Of a stretch of DNA of 64,000 bases, positions 38,814-59,873 are shown piece by piece. Where the stretch lies: NCBI GenBank assembly GCA_046563655.1, contig CM102288.1, positions 1,736,001-1,800,000 of the forward strand. Direction: 5' to 3'. Source of the DNA: Yuukianura sp. NJ FZ-2021. Its lineage: Eukaryota. Position 1 is the stretch's first letter, and the number at the start of each line of letters is the position of its first letter. A program made the position numbers and the translations under genes. The notes below the pieces were generated by a model. The model was not told the DNA's origin, did not search any database, and saw only the letters and a list, made by a program, of their open reading frames with translations.

Positions 38814-40918
38814 ATGAAGGAGGAGAAGAGTGATTTATTTAGTTGTGGGCAGTGCAGCTCGTCGTTCGTAACTAAACGAACCTTGGAGTCCCATACAAAG
38901 GCGTTTCATCCTCTGTCAAAGGTCAGTTCCACGGACGCGGACACGCCCGATCAGCATTTGTCACTGCCAGAGTCTCACTCTCAGGGATCGATGCCAAAGT
39001 TAAAACGAGCCAGTTATGCTTGTCAGCAGTGCAGCAAAAGATTTCCGACACAGGACGAACTGATACTCCATCAAAAATCGACTCATTCCGAAGTAAAAGT
39101 TATCCTTGACGGTCCGGAATCAAAACAGACAGCAAAACCACGTGCTTTGGTAAGAACTATTTCAAACGTTTTGAATTGGCGACATTTTGTTAGTCTAACT
39201 TTTTCAATTTGACCTTGTGTTTTACAGAAGCGACCTCTCGAGGTGAAAGATGAGGACGACGGTGACCTCAGAAATCAAGTCAAGACTAAAATCAAGATTG
39301 AGCCGAATGCGGATCCAATTGTGGAAGAAACAAACGACGTCAAGCCATTTGTCCATACAAATAATCGATTCTACCCATTTGCAAATGTAGAAAACTTTGA
39401 GATTACTGAAGTTGTCAAATCGCTGCTCATATCACATATGAACGCTGAAAGCGAACGGGAGAAAAAAGCTGCTGCAGCAGCAGCTCTTGAGAAGTCAACG
39501 TCTACAGCGATTGTGAAGTCACCAGTCCCAATGCGAGGAACAAAATATGAATCTGAGGATGACGAAGAAGATGAATTCGAAGGAGAAGGATCGTACGGAG
39601 CGACTTTCTCTCCTGAAAATGGGCACGACGTATTGTCTCCTCTTGTGAGCATGGACGAAGGGGACAACTTCAATACTGGAAACTTTGTTTGCAGCGATTG
39701 CGGAATTGAGTTTCCCACGGACTTCCAATTGGTGAAACACATGCAAGATCACGTCAGTCGTCCTCACAAATGCAGAATTTGTGGAAGTCGATTCGCGAGA
39801 AGTAAGTAAAACTTTTAATTTTGTAAAAATCAACTTAAAATAACTTTTTTTGTGTGTATTTTAGGGGAACACTTGTCGAAGCATCAGAGTTCCGTCCATT
39901 CCGGAATTAAATATACTTGTAAATACTGCTCCAAAGATATTAGCCGTCGAGATCACCTAATTCGTCACCTCCGAAGTGTACATCGCTGTGAGGTATGATG
40001 CTTGGAGTTCAGAAAAATGCTTTATTTCTACCAGACTAAACTAAATTTCGATTACTTTTTAGATTCCAAAGGGCCTTGACCTGTTGTCTGCTGCTGCTTC
40101 GAGTGTTCGAGTTAGTTCGAATTGTCCATCGGCTAATGTTACGGCTCAATACGATCCGGATCTGAATCTAACTGTGCAAAGTATGCAGCCTAAACCAAAG
40201 AAAGTGAATGGGACCAAATGTGACATGTGCTGTGAAACGTTTACGGTTTTGGAAGAGCTGTTCCAGCATCAGCGACAAGCTCATGGCGACATTCGCAGAT
40301 ACGATTGTAAGTTTCAACACAATTTCAACTTTGGATTTTGTAATTCATAATTTTTATCTGGACATTTCAGGTGCATATTGTTCTAAAAGCTTCAAACGCA
40401 ATGAACATTTGCAGGTAGGTAACAAGTGGAATTCTGCATTACAAAATGAAACCAATGATTGAAACTTTCAGCGATTATTTTGTTGCGTATTTTTGTAGAA
40501 ACATATTGTACTGCACACGGGTGAGAAGAACTTCGCTTGTCAGTTCTGTTCAAAGAGCTTTCCCAGAAGAGATGCCCTTCAAGATCACCTTCGCCGAGTT
40601 CACGGTTCAGTCAATCCAGCAGAAACTGAACAATTTTCATGCGACCTCTGTGACAGAGTGTTTGCCCAAAGTTCCAAACTGGTACGACACCGGAATCAAG
40701 TTCATAACATAACACTGGCTGTGGCCATTGCCAACGGAGGATCACTGTTTCGAAATCAAGACAATGATGGCCAGTACTCGACAGGCGATGATGGTTCCAG
40801 TGACACTGGGTTGATGGATTTCAACATTACAAAAGTGAAATTACCTCCAGTTCCAGGTCTTCTTCCAATCAACGACTTCCAATTCCATGCAGCCACTACC
40901 AAAGTGGGAAAGAATTAG
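38814..40918 (+). CDS. Multi-C2H2 zinc-finger protein (about 9 fingers)
   Basis: CGQCSSSFVTKRTLESHTKAFH, CQQC..., CSDC..., CRICGSRFARREHLSKHQSSVH, CKYCSKDISRRDHLIRHLRSVH, CDMC..., CAYCSKSFKRNEHLQKHIVLHTGEKNFACQFC..., CDLC.... TAG at 40916-40918. The true 5' start is uncertain. Confidence 0.85.
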
Positions 40919-41155
40919 AGGACTTTGGAGCTTGGCCTTTCTTGGAAATTATTTCTGAACTTATTTGCTAAAAAGTTTATATTTAAAGAGCTTCTTTTTC
41001 CTGTCAACATTATTTAATTGGATCACTTTATACTTTCATAAGTCTAAATTTTAAGTTTAATTTCCTAAAATGAGAAATTCTTTATTACCCTGCTGTCATT
41101 CTTTCAATTTATAGACGTTATGTTTTAAGAATTTTCGTAAACATAAGCAGAGATT

Positions 41156-41250
41156 GGGTCGGTCTAAAAGGCCGTAAATCAGAGCGTGTGTTAACAGCAT
41201 GGGGAGCGGCCGCTCATTTAACATTACGTTAGCATGGCTAAAAGGCCGTA
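41156..41250 (+). repeat. Left terminal inverted repeat (95 bp)
   Basis: Exact reverse complement of 52293-52387. Confidence 0.95.
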
Positions 41251-41520
41251 GATTGGAGCGCAAAGACGCGCTCCAACCGCTCAAATGGTGTAAAAGGCCG
41301 TAGATTGGAGCGCAAAGATGCGCTCCAACCGCTCAAATGGTCTAAAAGGCCGTAGATTGGAGCGCAAACATGCGCTCCAACCGCTCAAATGGTCTAAAAG
41401 GCCGTAGATTGGAGCGCAAAGATGCGCTCCAACCGCTCAAATGGTCTAAAAAGCCGTAGATTGGAGCGCAAAGATGCGCTCCAACCGCTCAAATGGTCTA
41501 AAAGGCCGTAGATTGGAGCG
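41237..41520 (+). repeat. Subterminal tandem array, 52-bp unit, 5 full copies plus a partial
   Basis: Units start at 41237, 41289, 41341, 41393, 41445 and 41497. Consensus TCTAAAAGGCCGTAGATTGGAGCGCAAAGATGCGCTCCAACCGCTCAAATGG, containing a 10-bp-stem hairpin. Confidence 0.95.
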
Positions 41521-41565
41521 TATTTCATCGAAGTTAAATTTATGAGTCTCAGCCACATTAATAGT

Positions 41566-42003
41566 TCACAACCATTCAAATCTTATATGTTTAATGTATT
41601 TTTTTGACAACAGAATTGAATACCCCGTTGAATACCCCATCTTTAAGGAATTGAAAATAGCGATCAATTTCTCTTTAATTTCAGGATAGTTTAACATAGC
41701 AATTTGGTTATTCTTCTGTAACTCGAAAACGTAGTGGCGGAACCAACCGCCCGCTATATTTTCAAGAGCTTCTCCGAGATACAAGGACCAGGTGTTTTCA
41801 AGTAGTCGGTTTGCCATGCAGGACATTTCGTAGAGCATGAGGAACTTATGAACATCCTCCTTCGGAGTTCCTCCAAACTTAGGGAACTTTACGGTAACTC
41901 TAACCATAGGAGCATTAGATGGGATGGATTGGGGGGTTTGGATAGTGGCTGCGGTTGACGACGGTGGGTTAGGCGCTGGTGTATTGTTAAACAAGTGGTT
42001 CAA
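41566..42003 (-). pseudogene. Ty3/Gypsy Gag capsid-like fragment (N-terminal half), transposon cargo
   Basis: VKFPKFGGTPKEDVHKFLMLYEMSCMAN...LYLGEALENIAGGWF...YPEIKEKLIAIF matches the retrotransposon Gag pattern. The upstream Pro/Ser-rich frame is interrupted by a stop, and the fragment is truncated next to the 52-bp array. Confidence 0.65.
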
Positions 42004-44280
42004 CCGGCTAGGCTGGATGACCTGATGACCTCCCGAGGGAGTGGCTGCATTGGATGGGGGTTCGTGGGAAGGGATGGTGTAGGGTTATGGGGAGTGTTCG
42101 GGGTGGACATTGTTATGAAGGTGGGGATTGGACAGTGTATGAATTTCTAACCTCGTTGGCCGGAGTAGGTGATGTCGAAGTGCTGGAACTGGCCGCAAGT
42201 TGGATGCGAGGAGCCGGTGGACACAGTGGGATAGGCTTGTCCTGAAAGATGCTTGATGGTACCGTAAAGGTGAGAGAATGAAATGGTCGAAGTGGTCCGT
42301 AGAGGTGTACCGTCACTTGGTGACTTACAAGTACTTCGAGAAGAGTCTTACGAATGGAAAAGTACTGGGCTAGGTAATACTCTGAGTTTAGGATCTGAAA
42401 GTGGACGGTGCTGTGAGAGAACTGAATGAAGCTTCGAATCTTCCGTAGGGATTTATAGAAAGAAAAGTGGTGGAATGGCTCAGTGCCATTTGGATCGGTT
42501 TCCACAAATAAGTTGGCAACCCAAAAGCCTTTGCCAATCTGCCAAATTTGAGTCTTGCCAAGTTGGCACGGAAATACAGTCGTTGTATATCCAGTTTTAG
42601 GAGTAAGAGAGCTCGTTGCGATCTTGCCAAGTTCCCTCAGTGTTGCAGAAGTTTAAAATTAAATCTCGGCCTGTCCTTTTAAGGTTTCGAACCCGGCCGT
42701 CAAAATGCTCCAAAGTCATACTTGAGCTGGGTGCTCGGATGTGTTCCTAAAAATAGGTGTCGCCTTATATGGGAACGGCGAGCGAAAGGACAGAATGTAG
42801 TGCGGGAATCGCGTGTCGAGATGGACGGTCGCCAAAACTCGGGGTCTCGTCCCTAGATGGCGAGAAAATGGAAGGGGGCTAGGTGAACCAAAGCTGTCCG
42901 TATGGCGCAGTCTCACAACAACAGGCCGTTGCCCATAATGTGATCCATACGATGTTGGGTGAATGCCAACTGACCGACGGCGGCCAGCAGAATGGCGCAA
43001 GTCGGGAATCGTTATGGCTGGGGTTTGACGACTTAGAAGAGGTGGAGAAAAGAGATGGGGTGCTGAGGTGGGGGATGGGATGGTGGGGAAGGCGGAGGAA
43101 TCTTAGAGAGGGGTGGGGGATGATTCTCGATCGCGGCCGAGGAAGGCTACAATAAGGGCGTAAGAAAAGGGATTGATTGTCGGTCGGGTGACTGGCCCTT
43201 GGTGCTGAGGGGAGAGTGCCGCAGGAGGCTGCTTTCGAATGGACCAATGTAGTAGCCTGGAGCTCGGCAAGGTCGAAATTTTACAGCAGTGCTCGGGCCA
43301 GATCGTTAGGTTCGGAAATTCGTGGAAGCTAGGAGACACTCCCATTCCCTTCATCCACAATAAAGACGATTTGGCCTAAACGCAATATGGTGTGAGCCCA
43401 CTTATTGCAGCGAGGAAAGTACCTCACCTGTTTTGTTAGCTTATAGATACACTCTCTCCTTCTCCGCCTTACACCAGACAGTAATAAAGACGATCTGGCC
43501 CACGCACAATAAAAGTATCTGGACCCTTGTTAGGCGATCTTGGATACGGACCACTTGAAAGGTGGTTGAGGACAAGGATTGGGGCTTGGGTGAGTGGTCG
43601 TAGGCGAGGAAGTGGGATGAAGGGTTCTCCTAAAAGTCCCGCTCAAGGGTCAGAGCCAAGGCCGTCTTTACCAGGGCCGTCTTTACCGTCTTTACCTTTG
43701 CAGCCGCGGGATACGCAGCTTGAGGTCTCAGTCTCTACGCGGGAGAAGCCTTCTCAGTGCTGGCCTTTGGCGTACACAGTGGGGTTCAGGGAGGATGCCC
43801 TTGAGACTCCGGACTTTGTCGTAGCAAGGAGAGTAGTTAAATGGGAATGTCGGAGAAGGTCGTTAGTTTAAGGCTTCTGGTGGTTGGACGCGGTGAAATT
43901 CCCTAGGTGAGGATGCCCCTCGTCGGTTGGTGGTGATGGCGGAGAGGCGATGGATCGTGTTGTGATGGTTCCTCAGTGGCAGCTTCGCAACTGGTGAAGA
44001 GAAGGTAGTTATGGTTTGGGCACGGTTTCTGCGCTGTACTCTCTGCTTGTTGGGATGAATTCCTAGTATGTTAAGAGAGAAGTATTAAGGTATGCTAAAT
44101 TTGAAGTGTGACCATTGACCTGAGGTCTTTACAGACAGGTCGTCGGTTGTGACGCCTGAATACCTGTACTGATGTACAGTCTTCTCGTTGGCCACTTGGT
44201 GCCCAAGGGGGTGAGCGTTCCGTCTACCCTGGGTAGCGAAAGCTGAACCTATGTTTTCTGATGAGAAATGTTATAGTTCT

Positions 44281-44500
44281 GCACTGCTTTGTCAACTTGG
44301 AGGGAAAATATTTGAGTTTCGCACTACTGTGCCAAATTCGTTGCTAGAATTTTGGAATTTGCCCTACTGTGGCAAATTGCTTACTAGAATTTTGATATTT
44401 GCACCCCTGTGAGAAGTGTGTTGCCAAAATTTGGAAATTTGCGCTACTGTGGCAAATGTGTTTCCAAAATTTTGGAGTTTGCGCTACTGTGGCCAATTTG
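44281..44500. repeat. Degenerate 40-bp tandem repeat (about 5.5 copies) inside the large element
   Basis: Units at 44281, 44321, 44361, 44401, 44441 and 44481. Approximate consensus GCRCTACTGTGGCAAATTTGTTGCYARAATTTTGGAATTT. Confidence 0.8.
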
Positions 44501-46112
44501 TTAAAGTGCAGATGAAATTCCTAATGAAGTAGAATAAGGGTTGCTTACTTTTTGGCTGGTGATAGAGAAGGGCTGGAAGATGATGTTACTGGTGGGACTG
44601 GGCGCTATTGGTCCATCCTGTCCCAGTCACTTCCACACACAGTGGCCCAACAAAGGTCAACGGATTTATAAGTCAAAGTGTGATGGTGTGGTTATCCGAT
44701 TGTTAATGTCGGTGTCACAAAATGTGCAAGTTAGTAAGCTTTTGTTGCTAATTGAAGAGTTAACTTGTGTAACCAGTGGGGCTGGGGCACATAGTACAAG
44801 AAGTGTTATTAGGATGAGAGTGAAAGCTGAACTAAAGTTGCTAAGCCTCATGCCGTGATGTGTTAAAAGTGCGTAAGTTTTTAAAATGAAACGCACCGAA
44901 ATTTGAAACCAGGGCCCGAGGATGGCCCTATTTGGACATGTTCAAGTCCACATTTAGGTTTCGTCCCTGGGAATTGTATTTTTAGGAAGAAGCAGCGGGA
45001 GGGCTACAGTTATCGTGGGAGTCAAGTGTTAGTGCGAAGGAAAATGGGGGAAAAAAATACACGCTGCGCATGTAAGGCTTATTCTAAGAAAAAAAAATCC
45101 GAGTTCGAAAAGGACCATAAAAGATGTGAGCCCTTGCCCCCTCTGATCTGGAGCCTGCGGCCAAGGTCTCACAACTTCTGTGAGCACCGCGGACCCCGAG
45201 GGGGTAACCCCAAGGTTCCCGGGAGAAAGTAGGAGAAGGGATGTTTGACCTCACCTCGACCTCGGTGAAAGAAAGCGGCATCTGACTGTATCTCGGGCGG
45301 TTCCTGGTTCAGAGTTTGAGAAAGTAGCGAGGTCATAGGGCGAAAGCGGAGGTGAGGGCGAAAGGCTACTCAGACTACAACTCCTCTGATCGAGTAAAGA
45401 AATCTCACCTAGGGGTCTGGAGAAAGTTCCGTTGCACACTTTTATTTGCACACCAAAGAAACAGAACGCAAGGAGCCTCAGTGACCTCCGGAGCGGAAAG
45501 GTTAAGTCCGGGTCAAGTACGGACTCAGCGGGTGATCTCGGCCAAGGGATGATCCCCCGGGCCGAGATCGCTCCGCTCCTCTTCCGAGCCGATCTCTCTC
45601 CTTCCTCTCCTGTCTCCAGACTCTCTCGAGAATCAGGTTCGCAAATCCTAATATGCGAATCTGAGTCTCCATTTTTAATGATAACGGGGTCATCTCCTAA
45701 TCAGGAGATGACTCTGCTAGGATTCCCGGGCAATTCGTGAAACCGAATTCCGCCGAACTTGGAAGCGATCTTGGAGGTTCTTCCAAGTTATGCGGAAACC
45801 ATGTCACTCCTAAATCCGCCTTACTGGCCCGGTTTAGGAGCTGACAGTGTAGTAGGCCTGGAGGTAACATGTACTCTTTAGATTTTAGGAGGTTGTAACA
45901 ATCAATCCCGAGCAAATCAATTAACTTGTCATTTAACTTCTTTGTATTCTCGTAGTTTAGAATTACCCATAACTTGCTCCCTCCTCAAATCATCAGGTTC
46001 AACTCGCAGAAGTTGCAGTCCTACGAGGCGGACGAAACAAATTCGTATTAACAAGAAGGTTACTGCGAGAAATTAATAAAGGAGTGTATTCGGTGGTAAG
46101 AAGGTGTTGGGC

Positions 46113-46897
46113 TCACCTCAGGATGGAAACCTGTTCCCGTGAAGGCGACACTCCAGTATACGGCACAATCGGTAACTCCTTCAATTCCTTTCTGCGGTAA
46201 CGGGTTGGAGACGAGGTTAGATGTGAACCATGTACAGAGCAGCAAAAGTGTGTAAAGAAATTAAAGAAACGGCTCACCCCGTAATGGTCTTGGTCCTTAT
46301 GCAGTGAGCTGTTGTATTTCCAAAGGGATAACGGGTCACAAAAGTCGTTGAGGTTGGTTACACCTAATTGGTTGGAAACAACTGTGTTTTGGCGTAGTTC
46401 TTGGTAGTTTTCTTCTTTCCCAAGTACTTCCTCAAAGAATCTGTCTAGAGTCTCCCGACTCCGCGTGAAGTCTGGATTTCTGAAAAAAGTGAAACGAGCG
46501 GAAGTGGCGTGCTGTACAACAATATCAACGTATAAGTTTAACAAATTTGAAAACGCTGCTTACGTAGATTTTCGAATTTCATCTCCGTCCGTAAGTCGAC
46601 GACCTCTGCTACCTTACCATGAACAGGACAGCCAAGCGTCGGATGTAAGCGATACGTGTAGCGAATGGACTTCCCAGAGGGCGAACGTAGTGTGGAAGCT
46701 AGGATGGCTTGGTTGAGGTTTAGTTTCTCGCCGAAACGGATAACGAATACGCCCGAGTCATTAATTTTATCTTGGTTTTCTCTCCTAACTGTTTGAATAT
46801 ATAATGATGGGTTCGCCAATCGCTCACCGATGAACTCGTGGATGTAGACGTTCGAGTTCCAAGGGTAATGCTGAAACATATAACAAGTACTAGCCAT
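46113..46897 (-). pseudogene. Orphan, apparently spliced gene fragment (transposon cargo)
   Basis: Two consecutive protein-like ORFs (119 and 143 aa) separated by a gtaagc...gtacag intron-like stretch whose phases do not match. No recognisable domain. Confidence 0.35.
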
Positions 46898-47364
46898 AGT
46901 TAAAGAACCCCTGTAACATGTTAACTTTTTGTTGTAGGTGTACTGATTAGTCTGATGTTAATCAAGCAGAGATCCCAGGTTAGGTTACCTTAGGTTAGTA
47001 TACGTTAATTTCAAGCGAAACGATTCTGTTAGGTTAACAATCACACAACTTTAGCAGCTGTACCAAATTTGCACAGAACAATTCTTTGCCCTCAACCTAA
47101 TTTCTAGTGCTTCAAATTTGGTGCTTCCTACCCTTCGAGTAATAAGACAACAACAAGACACTTACCATTCCGGAATAAATTGGTGACGAAGCTGAACAAA
47201 GTCAACGAGTTACGTGTCAAAAAAAAAAAAACTACAAACATAGGTACATAGTAAACTGTAGCAACTGGAACAGAAAACACGGCGAAACAGAAAATTCAAA
47301 TGGCCCTGACTAAAAGTCTGAAGTGCTATCTGAAGTTACTGTCTGAAGTGACGTAACTTCGTCC

Positions 47365-48363
47365 AGGAATGTGGGAAATGTTTTATTGTTTTATGGCGAA
47401 TGAAAGCGTGACAACTATGGAAGTCTTGCTGAAATAACTCCTGCATTTCACGTTCAAAGGCAGATTTGCAATCGCGACTGATGGCGTACCGTTGTTTTCA
47501 GTACAAAATTGTAAAATAAATTCGTTAAAACAATGTTACTTTAGTTAATTTTACTCACCACATTTTTTTCACCACCGTCTTCGCCAATACACTGATTAAC
47601 GGAGTACAGCTCGCAGTCTTCTGTGTGCCACTGACCGAATGAATTAAATACCCCAGCATACATGTAGGGGTGTGTTATTCCGGGAACGTTGTAGTCCGAG
47701 ATTATACTTCCCAAATGCGCTTGATTCATCTGCAATCCTACTTCCTCTTCCGGCTGGTAAGGCATTCCATTCATGTAGGGCGTATTGTTACAAGCAATAC
47801 TTGCCCAGAAATCGTTCTCTGCATCCTGGAGCACTTCATATGCTGGAATTCTTCTAAAGGGAAAACATATAATGTTTAGGTGCTTCGGTGAATTTCGTCG
47901 AAGTTTTTCAGTTTGATTTTAAACTTTACTCGTTCTGTTTGAAGTAATTGGCAATTGTTTCCTTGTATTCACGTCCAGGAGCAGTAGTATACACTCCGTT
48001 TCCCACATCTGTTATGTTCACACGTCTTCCAGAGCTTCTAACGCGGCTTCCAGGGATTGCGCCACGTAGCTTTATTTCCCCCGATCCGGTTGTACAAAAT
48101 GCTAATTGCCTGAACTGTACGCTTTCAAGCATGTCAATACGCAGCGGCACAATTTGCTCTTCCGGAATAATCTTTAGAAAAGAGTGACCAGTTTTCAACT
48201 AAACCTTTAATTATTCAAAGATGACTGATACCTTAAAGATTGGAACATTTTCAGGAATTTTTGCTTCCATAACAACGACGTAATCCGAGAATCTGTCAAG
48301 ATCTGCCTTCGTTGCCTTGAAACTTGGTACTTCCAATCCAACCACATCTGATGGATTGCAAGG
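47365..48363 (-). pseudogene. KDM4/JMJD2-like JmjN-JmjC histone demethylase, intron-containing, decayed and 3'-truncated (transposon cargo)
   Basis: Exons 48363-48232, 48171-47930, 47853-47559 and 47489-~47365. JmjN: EVPSFKATKADLDRFSDYVVVMEAK...IFK|IIPEE. JmjC: AENDFWASI...VPGITHPYMYAGVFNSFGQWHTEDCELYSVNQ...GEK(M)W|YAISRDCKSAFERE...DFHSCHAFIRHKT. Confidence 0.85.
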
Positions 48364-49372
48364 CTGGAATTTGTTAAGCGTAATTTAAGGCACCTAGCAC
48401 ACTACATTGTTACCATTAGCAGACTGGTAGGTTGTCGATTCTGGTGCAGTGAAACTTTTTTTCCAAGTTGTTTGGCCAAAATTTATGAAAAATGTTTCTT
48501 CAAAGATTCGCTTTTTATCATGTCTAACGTTTTTGGAACGTTTAGAGCAAACAAATTTTTTTGACGGTAAGGGTCCCCTCTTTCCGTGTTTTCTTTTAAA
48601 TGTGGTGGTAATGTGGACCACCGCGGTTGAGCATTTCGTCGCCCTCTAACTGGTGCTCAATTGGAACGTTAAAGACGAAGTCTTTCTGCCGTAGCATGTT
48701 GGCTAGCATGGCATTCACTCGAGTACCGAGTCGAACCGACTCAAGGTAGATGTTGTAAGCACGCATTTTCTCCGGCTCCGGCATGGAGTCGAAGTTTAGC
48801 GGTGGAGTGAGTTGGTGTCCTTGCCATTTTACTTCTCGCTGCCAGACTTTATAGTTCAACTCCCTGCCTTCGGTCACCGAGATGTTAGGTTGGTACAAAT
48901 TGTTGTGCATTCTAGAAAGCAGAGGTGAAATGTTAACCTGCTACTAGGTTAACAGTTAGATTCGTGTGATCAGTTGTTCGACTATTTGAAGTATCAAAGT
49001 GTAATGTGATTTTTATTAATTCTTAATTATTTAATCAAGAATATAGTCGTGTGGGTGATGAGGTGCTTCGACTACTGCCGAAACTTGTTTGGGTCGGTGG
49101 CGGAGGAAATTACGTAGGAGCCGAGCCCTCAGTACGTTCGGAACTAGAAAATTCCTATAAGTCCACCGACATTTTCTTTCCAAAATCTAAGTACTGGATT
49201 CAGACAAGGTAGAGTCAAATTGTTCCCGCCCGTTGGTACAAACGAGTTGATCCAAATCTGACTCACAAGTTACTTCTCCCAAGTTTATGGTGAAGAATTG
49301 GAGAACGTGTTATCTGCGTCCCGTCAAACGGTCGCATTACGTACTTAATAGCTTTAGAATATGCAACAATGT

Positions 49373-49670
49373 TTAATCGGATGTCAAGTAGGTCAGATCT
49401 GGAAAACCAATAGAGGAATCTGACCGTTCAGCAATTTCCAAAAGTGTTCGAAGCTTCGTCATGGTTTCAGGGTTATGCATGCCAATTTGACGCCGCAAGG
49501 TCGGTTCCAGACCCCTCAGCGTATATTTCACACGTAGTGAGTCGTTCATGTCTGGATTGACTCTATCCGCAAGGTTCTGCATGTGTATGAAATAGTCAAG
49601 ATGAGCTTCTCCCTGTTTCTGTTTTCTAGAAAGCAATTGCCATTCGTTTCATGTCATAGGCCATAGCCAA
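49373..49670 (-). pseudogene. Gag capsid-like fragment (C-terminal half), transposon cargo
   Basis: EWQLLSRKQKQGEAHLDYFIHMQNLADRVNPDMNDSLRVKYTLRGLEPTLRRQIGMHNPETMTKLRTLLE matches the major-homology-region pattern of Ty3/Gypsy Gag. Frameshifted at its 5' end. Confidence 0.7.
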
Positions 49671-49676
49671 CACGTC

Positions 49677-49716
49677 TCAAATGCAGTGAGACCACCCCTG
49701 GTCTCACTGCATTTGA
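49677..49716. other. Perfect 18-bp-stem hairpin
   Basis: TCAAATGCAGTGAGACCA-CCCC-TGGTCTCACTGCATTTGA. Confidence 0.9.
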
Positions 49717-50699
49717 TGAATTTTTTTGAAAAAAATAAACAAAATTGAAAAGTCGTTCCCAAGTGACCCGGGTTGAAGGTCACAGAATTATTCCCATTGT
49801 GTCCACAATCGTAAAGTTAACTTTTGTATTAAATAAATGTTCGATGAGTGTTTGAAATGTTGAAACGTGATAAGAAATTTTAACCTTCAAAGATTTCTAA
49901 CGCTTTGGAGGTTTTGTTTTTGCCTCTGAATTGCTATGTGCAATAAATGTGAAAGCGATATGGGCAATAAATCGGGATCTTTGGATCCCTTAAGTTATGA
50001 ACTTCACTCACTTATTCTTTGATCGTGATGCATGCGTAGACCATGACACTGGAATCAGTCTCATCTCAGATTCTAACTAGTATAGGTTTATATTACATTT
50101 GGTGCAAAAACCACGATGCCAGGAAAAAAATGGCAGACTATGAAGTCTGAACGCAAAACAAGAGAAAGAATGGGGGTGTTTCACGTAAGTTATTTTTTTT
50201 TTTAAATATTTGTACTAAATAGTAATCATACATCTAGAAACTATATGATTCAGATGCCGAGTACCTCTCGTGACAATCCGACGGGAAGGGGCTGCCAAAA
50301 AAAAACCAAACAAACGAAATAAGGTTTGATTATTTCCTATTATTTCTGATTGGCGCAAGGTTTCATTTCCTGTTAGTACCTTACGCATACAGTTTAGGTT
50401 AGTCGTACGCGTGTCTTTGTGTAAAAGACTGTACGCAGGAGATTAAAATATGTGGAGGTGGATGCGTTTTACTTTATAAATTGAATTCCACATACCGTTC
50501 TAAAGATCATGAAAGTGCGCATGCGCCATTGACGTTCCAAGGCTTTTTTGTTACGCGCTTTTACTTTCTACGCATAAATTAGTTACCAATATAAAACAAT
50601 ATATATTAACGGTTAAGTGTATTCGTTTTATTTCCGCACTTCCAGCACGCTCGAGCGCCAGTAATTTTGTCTTAGTCTTTCGAGTTTTTGGTGTATAAT

Positions 50700-51080
50700 T
50701 CAAAAATCGCTGGGCAAAGAATTTTGAAAGCATGCTAGCGTCACCATTGTCGCTTTGTCCTCACGTGCCACAGGCTGCTCATCCGGATTCAGGCAGAAGT
50801 CCAATTTTCGTCGCACATAAGAATTTGTGCCTGGAGGAGGCAGGAACTCTAAAAGTGCTTTGTGAATCGATTTCAGTCTATTCTTACATGAAGAACATAA
50901 TGCGCGGTTATCTGCTCTATCCCTGACAGGCGTGAATTGTAGTTGTGAATTCATCCTGAATAACAAAGTTTTCAAAGCTTGCCCCACAGTCACATTGCAA
51001 TCCCGCAATGTTGCGGAAAATCCAATAATATCTTGACTATTCTTGAAGGGTTTGTCGCAATTATCGCAGTGTCTGTTCAT
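50700..51080 (-). CDS. ZAD (zf-AD)-like C2-C2 zinc-finger ORF, transposon cargo (possibly first coding exon of a longer, decayed gene)
   Basis: MNRHCDNCDKPF...TVGQALKTLL...NRALCSSCKNRLKSIHK: two CxxC pairs about 50 aa apart followed by an amphipathic helix, as in ZAD domains. Confidence 0.5.
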   Translation of the reverse strand: MNRHCDNCDKPFKNSQDIIGFSATLRDCNVTVGQALKTLLFRMNSQLQFTPVRDRADNRALCSSCKNRLKSIHKALLEFLPPPGTNSYVRRKLDFCLNPDEQPVAREDKATMVTLACFQNSLPSDF

Positions 51081-51481
51081 TTTCGTGCCGTCTGTTCTTT
51101 CTGAAATTGGGTCCAACTGATAGTGTATCCACCTTAAAGCACCAGACTTCAAACCAGAACTAATTTCAACCACAGACTGACAGGTTCAGACAGACTGCCA
51201 ACCACAGCTTCATGAGTTGTTAGTGAGTCACTTTCTAACTTGGAAACTAGGCAGAAGTGGCGGTTATCTCCCATCAGACACAGAATGGGTTAAAGGCATC
51301 GTAAAACAGAAATACATCCCCCGCCTAACTATGGACAATGCAATGCAAGTTAAAATGGTTTTTAATTTAATCAAAATTGATTTTGTTTTGGAGCAAAACT
51401 TGCTCCCTCCTGTTCATCGAAATTATTTTTTTTGGAGAATGTTCTAACATAACATAACCATTACAAAAGATTTAGGAAAAA

Positions 51482-51894
51482 TTTTACTTTCAGTGGGTAA
51501 CTCCGATTTTCGTAATTTTTTTTTTTCACAAATACCCTTTGACCCCCTGACTATGAAAATATAATTTTTTTTGACCCGCTCTCAAAAATTTCGAATTTTT
51601 AAAAAATTTTGAAAATGGGAAATTTCCCATAAGGTCACATGTTAACTTTTCTTAAAAATAAATCCCTTTCTCGAAGCCTAACCTAAACCTAACCTAACGA
51701 AATAAAACCAATAACCTATTTTGAGAAAAAAATTAACATGTGTCCTTATGGGGAAATTTCAATTTTCAAAATTTTATAAAAATTCGAAATTTTTGAGAGC
51801 GGGTCAAAAAAATTATATTTTTATAGTCATGGGGTCAAAGGGTATTTGTGAAAAAAAAAATCACGAAAATCGGAGTTACCCACTGAAAGTAAAA
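51482..51894. mobile_element. Fold-back/MITE nested in the large element
   Basis: About 180-bp imperfect inverted arms (51482-51660 and 51717-51894; TTTTACTTTCAGTGGGTAACTCCG... / ...CGGAGTTACCCACTGAAAGTAAAA) around a short CCTAA-repeat core. No clear TSD. Confidence 0.75.
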
Positions 51895-52292
51895 CTTTAC
51901 CAAGATTTACATCTAAATCTAAATTTTTACTTAAAACCGAAAACGAGTACAAAAAACATGAATTTCCTTCGTTCAACAAAAATTGTGCATCGATGCACAA
52001 TCGGTGGATCCACCGATTTCCCATCTCTTAACATTATACACACTCGCCTTATGGAGTGAAACCCAACCGTGTTTGAGGTGAGCGAAAGTAAACAAACAAA
52101 CACGGTTGGCATCCTAACAACTTGGTGGGTCTGTTTGATCCCACCAGAGGTCACAAGGTCAACCGAGTGGTCTGGCTCCAGTGGATCGGTCAGTATCCAC
52201 GGAAGCCAGCGCGGTGACCATAACACAATCTACGGCCTTTTAGACCATTTGGGCGGTTGGAGCGCATCTTTGCAATCCATTCTACGGCCTTG

Positions 52293-52387
52293 TACGGCCT
52301 TTTAGCCATGCTAACGTAATGTTAAATGAGCGGCCGCTCCCCATGCTGTTAACACACGCTCTGATTTACGGCCTTTTAGACCGACCC
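52293..52387 (-). repeat. Right terminal inverted repeat (95 bp), preceded by one degenerate inverted 52-bp unit (about 52227-52292)
   Basis: Exact reverse complement of 41156-41250. Confidence 0.95.
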
Positions 52388-52474
52388 GCAGAGATTACCC
52401 CGAATGCCTTGTGGAGGGAAGTGGAATTTGAGAAGAGAAGATAAACTCACTTTTTAACTTGTGTAAAAGTGGAC

Positions 52475-54349
52475 ATGTCATTTTTCTCTGAACATCGCGG
52501 TACTTTCTCTCGCGTAAAAGAATACCGGAAGAAGAATGACCTCTTCGTGGGTGACCGGCAAGTGGATGGCGACATTCTGGAAGTTGTCCAGCTTCAAGAG
52601 AAAGCGATGTCTGCCTTCGGGAGGAATTTTCCGGGTAACAGCTGGTGGCCATCATGGAACTTAATGTTAACTGTCAGAACAATTTTTCTACCGTGCGGAT
52701 TCCCCGAATCGGTGTCATCAGATTACGTCCAGTACCAAATCTTCGACACGATTCAGGTAAGTATCAAGATTTATGTCACTTCTTAGATAATTTTAAAGCA
52801 ATTTACAGTTAACATTGATGAATAATTTAACAGGCTTTCTCGTCTTCCATTACTGGTGCTCTTGCGACGGAAGCAGTATTCAAGTCAGTGGGGGTTGGAA
52901 CTTCTGAGGCAACACCGCTCGCTGCGGCAGTCACATGGTTAGTAATTAGTTTCTGAATTTACAATTGTAATTAGTTTCATCTGATACTTTGTTCATTCTA
53001 GGTTAATAAAAAGCGGAAGTGGAATGGTCAGTGGAATCGTTTTCACATGGTCTAAGGGGTACCAAATTAAATCAAACATCTACAGAAATCAAGATCCCCA
53101 GTTTGGTTAACATTTCTGTAATGTCTTTCTTTTCAGGACAGCGCTTGACTACGATAACAAGAAATGGCGATTGTTCGCTGATATCCTTAATGGTAAGCGT
53201 ATTTCTTCCGATAAACAGATCTGCTTGGGATACACTGTGAAGTTATCATGACGTAACTAATTGCTAACTTCTATTCTGTTTAGATTCGGCAATCTTTCTG
53301 GACCTTATAACACCTCTGTTCCCATCGAATCTTGTGATCTTCATGTTCTCCTTATCCAGTATTGCCAGAGCTTTAGTTGGAGTGGCTGGTGGAGCTACAA
53401 GAGCAGCGATTACACAACATCAAGCTCGAAGACAAAACGCTGCCGACGTTTCAGCTAAGGATGCTTCACAGGAAACGTTGGTCAATTTAGTCAGCTTAAT
53501 TGTCAGTCTCATTCTCCTTCCGATTGTGAGCGGTCGCCAACTGTAATTGACTTTCTTGTCAAGTTTAATTTCAAACATAAATGAGGTTTTTCCTAACCTT
53601 CGTTGTTTATTTTACAGAATTGTTTGGACTCTGTTCTTCGTCTTCACATTTCTCCACGTTTTTGCAAATTACCAAGCACTTCGGGCTCTGAACCTGGAAG
53701 TGTTCAATTCTAGTCGCCTTCTTTTTGCTCTCCAACGGTTTCTACTTTACCAAAAAGTTCCTACAGTTTACGAAACTAATCAAAATGAATCTCTAATTGT
53801 TGGATTCGGCATCAAAGGTAACTTCGAAACTAAAAATTCAATAATCGGATATCTCTGATGTTAAGATTAATTTCTCGTTTTTAATTATCAGATCGGGACG
53901 TTTGTAAATTTTCTATAAGAGTTGGTGTTTCGCTTGAGGAGGCACTGCCCAGTCTTTCTACTGCAGAAATCAGTGCAGCTATTCATGATTCGGAAGGGAA
54001 ACCATTTCTCATCTTTGGAAATGCTCAAAGAAGAACGATTTATATAATACTTTCCGAAAATATTGGGTCTACGTCCATCCTAGAAGCCTACGCTCGGTCG
54101 ATACTTGCCGCACATAACTTCAATGCTAACGTGGAGGTCAGTACTTTGTATTTCACTAGTATTTACAATGGTGTTGTTCGCATAACGGAACAAAATTTTT
54201 GTAATTTCCAGAAGGTTTTACGTCCACATTCTCCAGAAGTAACTAAAGCGTGGGAAACGTTTTACCATGGAGCGACTTCTGAAGGATATGACCTGTCCTC
54301 TGCTCTGATTCAAAGTGATGATTGGAGAGCAAAATGGAAACATTCCTGA
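52475..54349 (+). CDS. RUSF1: RUS1 family protein (C16orf58/RUSF1 homolog, DUF647), multi-exon
   Basis: IFLPCGFPESVSSDYVQYQIFDTIQAFSSSITGALATEAVFKSVGVG...ATPLAAAVTW; KKWRLFADILND; ALVGVAGGATRAAITQHQARRQNAADVSAKDASQETLVNL; LHVFANYQAL; DDWRAKW. TGA at 54347-54349. Confidence 0.93.
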
Positions 54350-56644: not shown

Positions 56645-59600
56645 TTATAAAGCAAACATCTTATTCTCTTGCTTCTCCTTGTCCAGAGTTGATCTTGTCG
56701 TTGGTGGTTGCCTGGATTCGGAAGCAGCATTTGCCCTTTCCTGCAGAAATTTATCAAATTCTGAACTTGTTAGGGACTCTCCACCAACAGCACCAGGCTG
56801 AAATCATAACACCAAAACCAGCAAATTATTAGAAACCATTCCACAAAAACCTAAATCTACAAAATAAAAATACAAATCGTACATTTGCCTTGAGCCATGC
56901 TTCCATTTCGTCAAAGTCTGATTCCCTGTGCATCTGTTACACAAAGTCAATTTTTGGAAAATTAAAAATTCAACTTTACAATTTCTACAAAAACCACCAA
57001 AACCGAAAAAACTAAACCAACCTGGATAATTGCTTCCTGTGGAACGACAAAACCCAAAAATGAGACAGAAAGAACAGAAGACACCACCGAACGTGTAAAA
57101 AGAAACACCCAAATGAGAACAGACAAAAACCAAAGTATAAATCCAGCAGTACACAACGAAATAAGAAATCACAAAATCCACAAAGCCCAAATTGTGCACA
57201 GTGAACTTAAATTGCAAATTATTTTGTCAAGTATTTTCTTACGTCAATTTCCGGTTCAGTCCTCCTTGCAACTGCTCCTAAGCTGTTAGCTTGATCCACG
57301 TTGGAATTGTCAGCGTATGTACTTCCGCTGGGAAATGTAAAATACCGATGTAAAATCAATTACGAATCAGCAAATCAAAACTATTTTGATGATTGATTAC
57401 CTTAATTTTGACTTTTCATATGAGGCCGTCCGTGACTGAGCAAACATGTCAAAGTCACTTTCATCTTCTGGTTTGCGGACACTGGACTTCTGCATGGCAC
57501 TATTATCTTTAAGGTTAAGTCCAGTTGACATTTTCTGTGCCGTATTGGACACAGCCTCGGCATTCCCATCTCCCCAGTCTATCAACGACGGTTCGGATTC
57601 ATTCTTTTGCAGTGAAGTTGACGAATTCACTGGTCCACCTCCTGTCTTCTCAATATTTTTCCGATACCGGCCATACCTGAAAACAAAAATAAAACGGCGT
57701 TTAAGTCCAACAAAAAAAATCAGATTCTAACGAAAACTAAAGATGCTGAAATCTTTCCCAGCGCAAAACACTAAAACAAAAGTTGATTTTCATCCAAAAC
57801 AATTTTTAAAAAATTAATAATTGTAGGTTCTACTGAGAATCGAACTCAGATCTCGAGATTCAAAGTCTCACGTGCTAACCATTACACCATAGAACCACTG
57901 GTTGAAATGACCGTTGCCAAAACTCATCCTATGCGGTGAGTCATTCTGCGATGAGTTTTTGCAGACACTCATACACAAGAGCAAATTGCAATATAGCATT
58001 TCACACCTCACAGTAATTATAATCAAAGAAATTGAGTTGTAACTGACCTCAAAAAGAGATTATTCAACTCGTCATTAATATGAAGCATCTCTGCCGTCAG
58101 CTCATCAGAGGACACAGTGCAAAGTAGCTCCGCAATTCGTCTCTGCATCTCTTTGCATGTGCTGTACAGCTCCTGCAAAAGTAATTAAATTGCAACAATT
58201 GTTTTTCTGCTATACCAGCAAAACATAAAAAAAAGCAAAACACATGCTCGTTGAAAAACTATTAAATATTGAACAGTTAATTAAATCAATCAATTCTTAC
58301 CTGCAGAAGTTGCATGTCCTGTGGATCCTCATTTCCTGGCTTCATTTCTGACAACATCTCTGCGAACACTGCAATGTTCGACTGTACCAAGTCGAGGTCC
58401 CGACGAATCTTCACCACTTGATCACCGCTTACCTGAGACATAATCAGTTAACGTTAGTCCACTTTTTCTAACAACAGGCTAAAACTTGAAGGTTTTCGTT
58501 CGCAGTCCGTGATTAATTCACGTCAAAGTTTCTAGAAAAGTCTACTATTTAGTCTATTATCTTCGTGACTTGACTAACAAAACCAACTGAAGAGAAGTTT
58601 AACTGTGTAATTTTGCTCTACCGAGTCAACTTGAAAAGGAAGTCATTAGAGTGTGACGATGATGAGGAGCAGAGCAGGAGAGAAAATCAAACAATGGACA
58701 GACTACACGTTAAAACTCCGAAACCATGAAACGGCAGAGGGGAGTTGAACCATTATAACGAAAAATCTCATGAAGAAGTCATTTGTAACACAACGGTAAT
58801 CTCGATTCCCAAAAAAGCTCTCGCCCCTCAAAAATTTTTGCAAATTACTGTTGCAAAAATAGGTCTTTAAAAGCAATGTTGAGTTTTAGAGATTTTTGCA
58901 CAAACTCACCTGACGTTCGCCGAGATCAACGGGATGCAGAATTTGTTCCGCCTCTACGCTCTAGAAACACCAAAACAAATATGCGTAACAAGATCAAACA
59001 AATTCCTAGTACAAGATAAGATTCTCTACATTGGTTGATAACTTTAAATCAAAGTGTCGGTAACCCTGGAGGATCCATGAACCGCAATACTTACACGTTT
59101 TGGTGTCAATATCGGTGCCATACTGCCAAGATCCGTCATCGGGAATTCAATTCCTTTGCTCTTCAGTTCATGATAAACTTGTACAACGCCCGAGAGCTCC
59201 GGGTCTCCGTTAAAGGTATCTGCCCAATTTTGGATCAATTCCAGCACTTTCTCCTGGATTACTAATGGTGGGTCGTTCTTAGCACCTAACACAAGAAAAC
59301 AATAAGTTAATGCAGCGCTTCGAAACGATTGATTCATGTATAGAACATTGAATTTCAACTCACCAATCAGTTTCACCATATCCTGGACAAAATCCTTATG
59401 ACACACCAGGATATGAAAACGTTTCGAACAGTTCTTGACACATGCTTCCAAAATCGTCAAAGTGTACATTATGACATTGTAGTTTCTTCCAGAACTTTGC
59501 CCCAGTCTCTTCTTTATCGCCCGAATCGCGTCTTTTCCAGCTTCATCGGTCTGATTAATGTCGTCGCAAATACTCATAATCAAGGACCAGTCTTCGGATG

Positions 59601-59873
59601 CATTCTGTAGATCCGTCGCTTGTTCTATTTCAGAAACATAAGCAAATCAATTAAAATGAATCGTCAATTGGAAAGTTAAACCGACCCCTCATTTGCATGT
59701 CCAAAATATATTCTCACTGTACATTACCGAAACCAATAGCATATCGTTCAAAGTTCAACGTACTATTATTATAGAAAACATTCCTTACCAATTTTACGTC
59801 CAACTGGTGTTGAAAATGGGTTTCCACTAAACAGGGACATGATTGGTTCAAGCGACTTCTTGGCTTCCTCCAT
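56645..59873 (-). CDS. TOM1L2: TOM1 / TOM1-like 2 (VHS plus GAT endosomal adaptor), multi-exon
   Basis: [22 protein letters not shown]...[32 protein letters not shown]...[11 protein letters not shown] (VHS); GAT exons; [31 protein letters not shown]...MFAL*. Start is either 59873 or 59840. Confidence 0.92.
57825..57896 (-). tRNA. tRNA-Gln (anticodon TTG), intronic in TOM1L2
   Basis: GGTTCTATGGTGTAATGGTTAGCACGTGAGACTTTGAATCTCGAGATCTGAGTTCGATTCTCAGTAGAACCT forms a full cloverleaf with A/B boxes, followed by a T5 run about 12 nt downstream. Confidence 0.93.

What the first reader, a model, noticed from the sequence alone, without database searches (positions are those of the whole stretch)
41147..52396. 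11.2-kb cargo-loaded Mutator-like transposon (animal 'Pack-MULE') with pristine ends and multi-gene cargo
Seen: 95/95-bp identical TIRs and a perfect 9-bp TSD (GCAGAGATT) enclose 11,232 bp. Inside are a ZAD-like ORF, two Gag fragments, an intron-containing JmjN-JmjC gene, orphan spliced sequence, a nested fold-back and a minisatellite. All recognisable coding cargo is on the minus strand, and no transposase was recognised. Known: 9-bp TSDs with long G-starting TIRs typify Mutator/Foldback elements, and gene-fragment-carrying Pack-MULEs are best known from plants and are typically a few kb. Inference: this is a large gene-capturing DNA transposon in an animal. The ends are perfect while the cargo is decayed, so an old cargo package was probably mobilised recently in trans, implying an active autonomous partner elsewhere in the genome.
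Basis: partly seen in the sequence, partly recalled or inferred. Interest (0 to 1): 0.9.

Follow-up and report, generated by a model that had tools for sequence, protein, structure and literature searches.

The report
Old cargo-carrying DNA transposon insertion
This is a real 11-kb cut-and-paste transposon copy with no transposase of its own that carries part of a histone-demethylase-like gene, but it is shared with a second sample, varies in structure, and belongs to a kind already described in animals.

Summary
The structural observation holds. Perfect 95-bp TIRs (41156-41250 / 52293-52387) and an exact 9-bp TSD (GCAGAGATT) bound 11,232 bp. A 26-nt end motif is repeated 7 times at the left end and 3 times at the right. 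No transposase is present: 0 of 6 frames and 0 of 115 ORFs reach any Pfam cutoff.

The cargo claims hold only in part. A divergent KDM4-like fragment is real, with one verified 76-nt GT-AG intron, but its C-terminal catalytic half is missing. The Gag calls are weak. The ZAD call is unsupported.

The history claim does not hold. The left junction is also present in an independent run filed under another organism label. The interior differs between contigs by blocks of 4.2, 1.5, 0.4 and 0.5 kb. TIR identity is not a clock.

By contig depth, the KDM4-like piece looks multi-copy on its own, independent of the TIRs.

The superfamily is inferred as Mutator-type, but Merlin fits the same end features. 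No genome was available to look for an autonomous partner.

Insect Pack-MULEs (Ssk-FB4) and mosquito MULE derivatives carrying host gene fragments are already published. I rate it a new member of a known kind, of moderate to low interest.

The parts
41147..41155 (.). Left copy of the 9-bp target site duplication GCAGAGATT
   Evidence: identical 9-mer directly outside both TIRs; neighbouring bases differ, so the length is exactly 9.
41156..41307 (+). Left TIR. The first 95 nt (to 41250) match the right arm perfectly, and similarity continues to 41307 at 90%.
   Evidence: I1; 162-nt alignment, 90.1%.
41234..41520 (+). Subterminal tandem array: 5.5 copies of a 52-bp unit. Each unit repeats the 26-27-nt terminal motif (GGTCTAAAAGGCCGTA...GAGCG). 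These are the presumed transposase-binding sites.
   Evidence: period 52, 96% matches; D3 (7 motif copies at the left end); (14-mer core 10 times in the window, all at the two ends, 0.02 expected).
41631..45846 (.). 4,216-bp variable block. It is G+C-rich (52% at 42-44 kb) and holds the gag-like ORF 41566-42084(-) and the 40-bp minisatellite 44305-44498.
   Evidence: table 5: contigs of X1 (depth 102.6), X3 (30.8) and X5 (5.35) join 41630 to 45847..
45847..47331 (-). Shared core with orphan ORFs (46113-46559 and 46538-46957) and a weak second KDM4-like scrap (46020-45967).
   Evidence: table 8: X5 pieces 45847-46371 and 46387-47331 at depth 5.4-5.7; no family. E 2.2 scrap.
47372..48366 (-). 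Truncated, divergent KDM4/JMJD2-like gene fragment. It has a JmjN-like part (48366-48229, weak), an exon 48198-47930, a 76-nt GT..AG intron 47929-47854, a JmjC N-half exon 47853-~47552 (keeps the H-x-E of WHTED), and a continuation 47497-47372.
   Evidence: PDB KDM4D/A E 5.6e-8; best of 107 hits 46% identity, E 2.7e-16; tblastn map; spliced translation aligns across the junction; continuation in another frame, with stops.
48192..49704 (.). 1,513-bp variable block holding the second gag-like ORF 49373-49648(-). A perfect 18-bp-stem hairpin (49677-49716) sits at its right edge.
   Evidence: X1 contig joins 48191 to 49705 with 13 other letters between, depth 110.8.
50700..51185 (-). It has no family support. 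The 414-bp block 50624-51037 inside it is skipped by other contigs.
   Evidence: (50623->51038 in X1 and X4 with filler TTAAGTG). (the filler copies 50613-50619).
51470..51906 (.). Nested fold-back (MITE-like) repeat. The contigs laid over it have the highest depth in the region.
   Evidence: I2, I8, I9: arms 85 nt 92%, 55 nt 96%, 56 nt 91%; bin 51600-52083 depth 2791 in X1 against ~237 in the flank; X4 contig joins 51453 to 51932.
52226..52387 (-). Right TIR. The last 95 nt (52293-52387) are perfect. It carries 3 copies of the terminal motif.
52388..52396 (.). Right copy of the 9-bp target site duplication

Best explanation
This is one copy of a low-copy, non-autonomous cut-and-paste DNA transposon. 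Its end architecture is of the Mutator-superfamily type (MULE / Rehavkus / Foldback-like).

Shown:
- Perfect 95-bp TIRs and an exact 9-bp TSD.
- A 26-27-nt terminal motif repeated 7 times at the left end and 3 times at the right.
- No transposase inside.

Inferred mechanism: a transposase made elsewhere binds the repeated end motif, pairs the ends, excises the element and inserts it with a 9-bp staggered cut.

Location: it landed in a ~308-bp spacer, 229 bp after a C2H2 zinc-finger gene and 79 bp before the first ATG of a RUS/UVB-sensitive-family gene.

Interior: it is a mosaic. It holds a truncated, intron-bearing, highly divergent KDM4-like fragment, two weak retroelement Gag-like remnants, orphan sequence, and a nested fold-back repeat whose contigs are very deep. 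The KDM4-like fragment looks, by contig depth, like part of a separate multi-copy repeat.

History: the insertion is not demonstrably recent, because it is shared with an independently sequenced sample under another organism label. After insertion the interior was reshaped by large deletions and/or insertions, and at least one deletion shows templated filler. I take the cargo to be non-functional passenger DNA at this copy.
For: - Ends: (TIR and TSD; 0 chance matches in 100 shuffles).
- Binding-site-like repeats: D3; 10 motif copies, all terminal, against 0.02 expected.
- No transposase: (0 of 6 frames with any Pfam family at E<=1); 0 of 115 ORFs >=45 aa reach a curated cutoff. 7 of 115 have sub-threshold hits, and none of those is a transposase.
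- Mutator-type features in the literature: 8-11 bp TSD and long TIRs (PMC6446971, passages and Table 1). Rehavkus has a 9-bp TSD, 26-400-bp TIRs, a minisatellite, and Arthropoda/Annelida hosts (same table). Aedes Muta families have 8-9 bp TSDs, TIRs >100 bp, subterminal tandem repeats, and derivatives with host gene fragments (PMC5225508, passages).
- Family mobility: an X5 contig starts the TIR at 41156 behind 255 letters of an unrelated flank (table 7).
- Shared insertion: X5 piece 40462-41239 crosses the left junction (table 8).
- Junctions reproduced without mismatch by X1 contigs 40673-41185 and 52358-54000. This is probably the source sample, so it is not independent.
- Variable interior: joints table 5. 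The filler TTAAGTG is templated from 50613-50619.
- KDM4-like fragment.
- Depth: X5 contigs over 47447-48597 have depth 164 and 114, against 4-7 for neighbouring pieces. The TIR bin is only 18. The tool warns that depth is not a copy number, so 'multi-copy' is my inference.
- Flanking genes.
Against: - The defining MULE feature, a MULE-type DDE transposase in a partner with the same ends, was not seen and could not be sought.
- Merlin elements share the 8-9-bp TSD and 5'-GG TIR ends.
- Only one additional TIR end was seen, and only in X5. Its TSD could not be read.
- All read evidence is from short assembled contigs. These cannot phase the blocks, cannot separate alleles from paralogous copies, and cannot show that the two ends are linked across 11 kb.
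- Which structural form is ancestral is unresolved for the 4.2-kb and 1.5-kb blocks.
- The window carries 4 extra bases at 47571-47574 relative to every contig laid there, in all 4 runs (table 4). So the frame break that makes this KDM4-like copy look dead at that point may be an assembly error.
Confidence: 0.55

Rival explanations
1. A short MITE-like element inserted here, and the interior was acquired later in place. The routes would be nested insertions and transposition-independent gap filling after breaks inside the element. On this view the 'cargo' never travelled between these TIRs.
For: - Tan et al. 2021 infer that single-copy animal Pack-TIRs mostly arise by transposition-independent gap filling (PMC8277862, abstract and section 7).
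- Both gag-like ORFs lie in blocks that other contigs skip (41630->45847; 48191->49705).
- X5, which shares the junction, has a contig joining 41630 to 45847.
- The fold-back at 51470-51906 is a separate repeat whose contigs are very deep, and an X4 contig joins 51453 to 51932.
- By depth, the KDM4-like piece is far commoner than the TIRs in X5.
Against: - None of the large joints shows a shared-letter overlap ('both' = 0), as a TSD-making nested insertion would give.
- The 414-bp difference carries locally templated filler, which points to a deletion from the long form.
- The 4.2-kb block has roughly single-locus contig depth in X1 (165-170, plus 102.6 for the skipping contig, against ~237-269 in the flanks). 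So no donor copy is evident. This is a weak, depth-based argument.
Confidence: 0.22
2. The element belongs to another superfamily that also makes 9-bp duplications, above all Merlin (IS1016-like). It would then be a non-autonomous Merlin derivative.
For: Merlin elements have TIRs of 24-462 bp with a conserved terminal 5'-GG and are flanked by 8- or 9-bp TSDs (PMC8101967, introduction passage). Here the TIR starts GGG and the TSD is 9 bp.
Against: - Subterminal tandem arrays of the terminal motif and TIR similarity beyond 100 bp are reported as typical for animal MULEs (10 of 12 long-TIR Muta families) and for Rehavkus.
- No IS1595-type DDE domain is present in the element. That says nothing about a partner elsewhere.
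Confidence: 0.13
3. One reading: an intact 11.2-kb multi-gene Pack-MULE package was moved very recently in trans by a currently active autonomous Mutator element.
For: - 95/95 TIR identity and a perfect TSD.
- Cargo with stops and frame breaks.
- One more TIR end elsewhere in X5.
Against: - The same left junction is present in an independent run under another organism label, at about 1-3% divergence in the laid pieces (table 8).
- The 11.2-kb arrangement is one of several forms (table 5).
- At that divergence 0 differences in 2 x 95 nt are not unexpected (my estimate).
- TIR arm identity is a family property, not an insertion clock.
- Two of the four named 'genes' (ZAD, Gag 1) have no family-level support.
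Confidence: 0.07
4. Assembly artefact: the two ends were joined wrongly, or the interior is a chimeric collapse.
For: - No laid record spans the whole stretch (table 1).
- The window differs from all contigs by 4 bases at 47571 (table 4).
Against: - Both junctions are reproduced exactly by contigs of X1.
- The left junction is reproduced by the independent X5.
- A matching 9-bp TSD at two mis-joined ends would need a 1-in-262,144 coincidence.
- All 30 bins are covered in X1, X3 and X4.
Confidence: 0.03

Closest known systems
Non-autonomous derivatives of Muta/Phantom MULEs in Aedes aegypti (Liu & Wessler 2017, PMC5225508; passages seen)
   Same: 8-9-bp TSD, TIRs >100 bp, subterminal tandem repeats of a short motif, no transposase, and heterogeneous interiors that include host gene fragments.
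   Different: The Aedes repeats are 9-15 bp, against 52-bp units here. Muta1 is 3.2 kb, and this copy is 11.2 kb. There the autonomous partner and transposition are demonstrated; here no partner is known. Their Additional file 2 (list of derivatives) was not seen.
Ssk-FB4, called 'Pack-MULEs in Drosophila' (Tan et al. 2021, PMC8277862; abstract, sections 7 and 14, and passages seen)
   Same: Animal TIR element with 9-10-bp TSDs and long TIRs, no own transposase, and carrying an intron-containing host-gene-derived segment.
   Different: Ssk-FB4 has a known parental gene, several copies with distinct TSDs, and expressed protein. Here the parent is unknown (the nearest protein found is 46% identical), and only one full copy is seen. 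Their Supplementary Data were not seen.
Rehavkus group of Mutator-related elements (Dupeyron et al. 2019, PMC6446971, Table 1 passage)
   Same: 9-bp TSD, TIR 26-400 bp, an associated minisatellite, and invertebrate hosts.
   Different: Rehavkus is defined by its transposase with a PHD finger, and none is present here. The position of the minisatellite is described there relative to the ORF, which this copy lacks.
Merlin superfamily (PMC8101967, introduction passage)
   Same: 8-9-bp TSD and TIRs starting 5'-GG within the 24-462-bp range.
   Different: Nothing in the passages I read reports subterminal motif arrays as a Merlin hallmark. No IS1595-type DDE domain was found here.
Plant Pack-MULEs (rice; PMC5861414, seen only in the search listing)
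   Same: MULE-type ends around captured gene fragments, with no transposase.
   Different: Tan et al. describe plant Pack-MULEs as short (~300 bp), and their parents are identifiable. This element is a large mosaic with retroelement-like remnants and a nested repeat.

Membership tests
Mutator superfamily (MULE) | Target site duplication of 8-11 bp | tested here: met
   Exact 9-bp TSD. Range taken from PMC6446971.
Mutator superfamily (MULE) | Long TIRs, commonly >100 bp | tested here: met
   95 nt perfect; 162 nt at 90%.
Mutator superfamily (MULE) | MULE-type DDE transposase in the element or in an autonomous copy with the same TIRs | tested here: not met
   None in 6 frames or in 115 ORFs. A partner elsewhere is not testable because no genome is held.
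Mutator superfamily (MULE) | Several copies with the same TSD length at different sites | tested here: inconclusive
   One further TIR end with an unrelated flank in X5 (table 7). Its TSD is not readable. TIR scans of metagenome and viral collections were empty.
Pack-MULE / Pack-TIR (criteria of Tan et al. 2021) | Internal sequence copied from a host locus that still exists (>=90% identity, unique parental copy not flanked by TEs) | not testable with these tools
   No genome. The nearest protein in 1.84 billion representatives is 46% identical. Word-index searches were empty.
Pack-MULE / Pack-TIR (criteria of Tan et al. 2021) | Internal sequence 100-5,000 bp between two ends of one TIR element | tested here: not met
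   11,042 bp between the perfect arms. This is an operational cutoff, not a biological one.
Merlin superfamily | 8-9-bp TSD and TIR with terminal 5'-GG | tested here: met
   Definition.
Merlin superfamily | DDE_Tnp_IS1595-type transposase | tested here: not met
   No such domain in the element. A partner is not testable.
KDM4/JMJD2 histone demethylase (JmjN + JmjC) | JmjC domain at family level | tested here: inconclusive
   Pfam JmjC gives 16.4 bits against a cutoff of 24, covering profile positions 1-27 of 114 only. PDB KDM4D/A residues ~111-223 match at E 5.6e-8. In the representatives search, 107 proteins reach E<=1e-3.
KDM4/JMJD2 histone demethylase (JmjN + JmjC) | Complete Fe(II) triad H-x-E...H, i.e. 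the C-terminal half of JmjC | tested here: not met
   H-x-E is present in WHTED (alignment). No sequence matches the part of the four KDM4-like proteins beyond about residue 245-275.
KDM4/JMJD2 histone demethylase (JmjN + JmjC) | JmjN domain | tested here: inconclusive
   tblastn E 0.39 at 48366-48229. No Pfam JmjN hit.
ZAD (zf-AD) domain | Match to the zf-AD profile | tested here: not met
   No zf-AD hit at E<=10. Atlas best 0.75, recognition 1669.
Retrotransposon Gag / capsid | Match to a Gag/capsid profile | tested here: inconclusive
   49373-49648: Arc_C E 0.065 and Ty3_capsid E 0.13, below cutoffs. 41566-42084: no Pfam hit; Atlas neighbours named retrotransposon gag at 0.90-0.92. The two ORFs are not similar to each other.

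The most novel reading that the evidence does not exclude
The KDM4-like JmjN/JmjC module may not be dead passenger DNA. It could be a lineage-specific, multi-copy, still-coding gene family spread by mobile elements. Its products would bind or demethylate H3K9/K36-methylated chromatin and blunt heterochromatic silencing of the carrier elements. That would be an animal counterpart of transposon-encoded anti-silencing factors known from plants (a comparison I recall; it comes from no call).

Three observations leave this open:
- All laid contigs lack the 4 bases that break the frame in the window.
- At least one intron is intact.
- In X5 the piece has contig depth 20-30 times that of its neighbours.
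Probability: 0.04. Interest if true: 0.8.

Novelty: new member of a known kind. Interest (0 to 1): 0.32.

Why it matters
If the Mutator assignment holds, this adds a large, gene-fragment-carrying MULE-type element to the short list known from animals. Tan et al. found no Pack-MULE in 100 animal reference genomes, using a 5-kb size limit that this copy exceeds. So such large elements may be systematically missed.

It also sits 79 bp upstream of a gene's first ATG and is structurally polymorphic, which makes it a usable natural case for studying how big insertions affect a compact promoter.

It does not show current transposon activity or gene birth.

Tried and rejected
- Whole-genome TIR search: no genome is held for this window.
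- Exact-pattern scans for the TIR found nothing: metagenome contigs (21-mer) and viral contigs (26-nt degenerate motif).
- The search for related loci with the KDM4-like exon in metagenome contigs: 93 pattern matches, none confirmed.
- Three word-index protein searches returned nothing: the KDM4-like exon with 'longer', the gag-like ORF, and a flanking RUS exon used to place the host. The host taxon was therefore not determined beyond 'eukaryote with short GT-AG introns and C2H2-ZNF, VHS, M16 and RUS genes'.
- Earlier-findings look-ups by place, sequence and words were all empty.
- Empty site: among the joints listed for the 4 laid runs, none joins 41146/41155 to 52397. The table is cut and the records are contigs, so this is no evidence that an empty allele is absent.
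- Expression: no RNA holder was listed.
- In X5 the bins 41920-43855, 44824-45791 and 48696-49663 have no cover. I rely only on the contigs that join across these bins, not on the holes.
- Rfam and tRNA scans of 40000-53500: nothing.
- Literature search for JmjC genes captured by transposons: 70 papers held at least 4 of the 5 terms. None of the 15 listed, judged by title and abstract start, was relevant.
- Considered and dropped: the KDM4-like piece as a retrocopy (it keeps an intron), and a Helitron as its carrier (not tested).
- cluster look-up of the best KDM4-like hits gave only unnamed metagenome fragments.

Full report
**1. Observation: the ends**

The ends are exactly as described.
- One search finds inverted arms 41156-41250 and 52293-52387, 95 nt long and 100% complementary.
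- extends the similarity to 162 nt at 90% (41156-41307 against 52387-52226).
- Searches show GCAGAGATT directly outside both arms (41147-41155, 52388-52396). The neighbouring bases differ, so the duplication is exactly 9 bp.
- The 31-nt terminus occurs only at these two places in the 64-kb window, with 0 matches in 100 shuffles.
- TIR to TIR spans 11,232 bp.

Each unit repeats the 26-27-nt terminal motif. There are 7 motif copies at the left end (D3) and 3 at the right. The 14-nt core occurs 10 times in the window, all at the two ends, against 0.02 expected.

**2. No transposase**

- Six-frame translation of the whole element with stops read as X gave no Pfam family at E<=1 in 0 of 6 frames.
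- Long X-containing queries lose weak hits, so I also scanned all 115 stop-to-stop ORFs of >=45 aa.
  - 0 of 115 reach a curated cutoff.
  - 7 of 115 have sub-threshold hits at E<=0.1.
  - None of those hits is a transposase or a DNA-binding domain typical of one.
- Rfam and tRNA scans were empty.

**3. The cargo claims**

*KDM4-like fragment.*
- The ORF 47541-47918(-) matches human KDM4D/KDM4A (residues ~111-223) at E 5.6e-8 to 3e-7 against the PDB. The H-x-E of the iron site is kept.
- Pfam JmjC reaches only 16.4 bits against a cutoff of 24.
- A full HMMER pass over 1.84 billion representatives gave 107 proteins at E<=1e-3. The best is a 91-aa unnamed metagenome protein at 46% identity (E 2.7e-16). 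Typical KDM4-like proteins lie at 28-45%.
- tblastn with six of those proteins maps the pieces:
  - a weak JmjN-like stretch at 48366-48229 (E 0.39);
  - the strong piece at 47852-47595;
  - a continuation at 47497-47372;
  - a doubtful second scrap at 46020-45967;
  - nothing for the C-terminal half of JmjC.
- On the minus strand a 76-nt GT..AG interval (47929-47854) separates two of these pieces. Leaving it out gives one open frame that aligns colinearly across the junction with two of the four KDM4-like proteins tested, P0003 and P0005.
- So the fragment came from genomic DNA, not from an mRNA.
- The continuation after 47552 is in another frame with stops in the window.
- However, every contig laid there, in all four runs, lacks 4 bases that the window has at 47571-47574 (table 4). 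The break may therefore be an assembly error.

*Gag.*
- 49373-49648(-) gives only Arc_C E 0.065 and Ty3_capsid E 0.13.
- 41566-42084(-) has no Pfam hit and only language-model neighbours named retrotransposon gag at 0.90-0.92.
- The two ORFs are not similar to each other.

*ZAD.* There is no zf-AD hit even at E<=10. The Atlas best is 0.75 with low recognition. Only a CxxC...CxxC pattern remains.

*Other features.* The fold-back at 51470-51906 and the 40-bp minisatellite are real.

**4. Evidence from sequencing runs**

No genome is held, so I used public runs. Five holders were listed, from 2 studies. X1-X4 are one sample, probably the source. X5 is a different study under a different organism label. 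X1, X3, X4 and X5 were laid as assembled contigs.

a. *Junctions.*
- X1 contigs reproduce both junctions without mismatch (40673-41185; 52358-54000).
- An X5 contig of 778 nt lies on 40462-41239 with 7 other letters and 10 gaps. The same insertion site is therefore occupied in an independent sample that differs by about 1-3% in the laid pieces.

b. *A second TIR end.* Another X5 contig begins the TIR at 41156 behind 255 unrelated letters. At least one more end of this family lies elsewhere in that genome.

c. *Joints across large parts of the interior.*
- 41630->45847: X1 depth 102.6, X3 30.8, X5 5.35.
- 48191->49705: X1 110.8, with 13 other letters between.
- 48133->52226: X3 46.1, X5 7.31. 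The right side is exactly the inner edge of the TIR similarity.
- 50623->51038: X1 and X4, with filler TTAAGTG.
- 51453->51932: X4, skipping the fold-back.
- The filler TTAAGTG is a copy of 50613-50619. I read this as templated end joining, that is, a deletion from the long form.
- For the other blocks the ancestral state is open.
- Both gag-like ORFs lie in skipped blocks.

d. *Depth.*
- X5 contigs over 47447-48597 have depth 164 and 114, against 4-7 for neighbouring pieces and 18 for the TIR bin.
- The tool warns that contig depth is not copy number. I infer, cautiously, that the KDM4-like unit is a repeat in its own right and commoner than these TIRs.

**5. Setting**

- Upstream lies a C2H2 zinc-finger gene whose last ORF ends at 40918.
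- Downstream, the ORF 52445-52786 holds the N-terminus of the UVB_sens_prot/RUS domain, with further exons at 53268-54349.
- The element lies 229 bp after the first gene and 79 bp before the first ATG (52475) of the second.
- It therefore sits in a ~308-bp spacer close to the 5' end of a gene.
- This fits the genic targeting reported for Muta1 but does not discriminate between superfamilies.

**6. Mechanism**

Shown: TIRs, TSD, reiterated end motif, absence of a transposase, and a further end elsewhere.

Inferred:
- A transposase supplied in trans binds the reiterated motif and inserts the element with a 9-bp stagger.
- The superfamily is Mutator-type, judged from three published features:
  - TSD of 8-11 bp and long TIRs (PMC6446971);
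  - subterminal tandem repeats (10 of 12 long-TIR Muta families in Aedes, PMC5225508);
  - the Rehavkus profile of 9-bp TSD, TIR 26-400 bp and a minisatellite.
- Merlin fits the TSD and the 5'-GG start equally well (PMC8101967), so the assignment is about 55-60% likely.

**7. History**

- The arms of a TIR are not homogenised at insertion.
- The site is shared with X5.
- The present 11.2-kb arrangement is one of several.
- How much of the interior travelled with the ends cannot be decided from contigs.
- The main rival is that a short element grew in place. Tan et al. infer this as the usual origin of single-copy animal Pack-TIRs.

**8. What is known**

- Tan et al. 2021 found 370 Pack-TIRs in 100 animal genomes. 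They found none in insects or birds and no Pack-MULE in the reference genomes, using a 5-kb limit on the interior.
- They also describe Ssk-FB4 as 'Pack-MULEs in Drosophila'.
- Liu & Wessler 2017 describe Aedes MULE derivatives with host gene fragments.
- So this is a new member of a known kind.
- It is unusual mainly in size and in carrying a very divergent KDM4-like module that seems amplified separately.
- Supplementary tables of these papers were not seen and could list closer parallels.

**9. Verdict**

This is a real transposon insertion. It is probably Mutator-type and is non-autonomous, with a mosaic and structurally polymorphic interior. There is no evidence of recent movement. Interest 0.32.

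Noticed in passing
window 40919-41146 and 52397-52474: The element splits a spacer of only ~308 bp between the stop of a C2H2 zinc-finger gene and the first ATG (52475) of a RUS/UVB-sensitive-family gene. The right TIR ends 79 bp upstream of that ATG, so the insertion may have replaced or displaced this gene's promoter.
   Followed up: partly
window 47571-47574: The window has 4 bases that are absent from every contig laid there in all four runs, including the likely source sample (table 4). This may be an assembly indel. It changes the reading frame at the end of the KDM4-like exon.
   Followed up: partly
window 49677-49716: A perfect hairpin (18-nt stems, 4-nt loop) lies exactly at the right edge (49705) of the 1.5-kb block that an X1 contig skips. 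X3 and X4 contigs also diverge at this point (table 7). It could be a breakpoint hotspot or the end of another element.
   Followed up: no
window 47447-48597: In run X5 the contigs over this KDM4-like unit have depth 164 and 114, against 4-7 for neighbours, and they continue into unrelated sequence at 47385/47447 and 48551-48597. This suggests a separately amplified repeat family carrying the KDM4-like exons.
   Followed up: partly
window 41617-41640: A 12-bp tandem duplication (TTGAATACCCCG / TTGAATACCCCA) sits at the left edge of the 4.2-kb variable block. Its meaning is unknown.
   Followed up: no
window 42000-44000: The 4.2-kb variable block is compositionally foreign to its surroundings. 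G+C is 0.52 and GC skew +0.26, against about 0.36-0.47 G+C in the rest of the element and its flanks. On the minus strand it has overlapping Pro/Ser/Thr-rich ORFs and no family hit.
   Followed up: no
window 59044-59646 and 61247-62416 (minus strand): Ordinary host genes lie downstream: a VHS-domain (TOM1/GGA-like) exon and M16 peptidase (insulinase-like) exons. The region is gene-dense.
   Followed up: no
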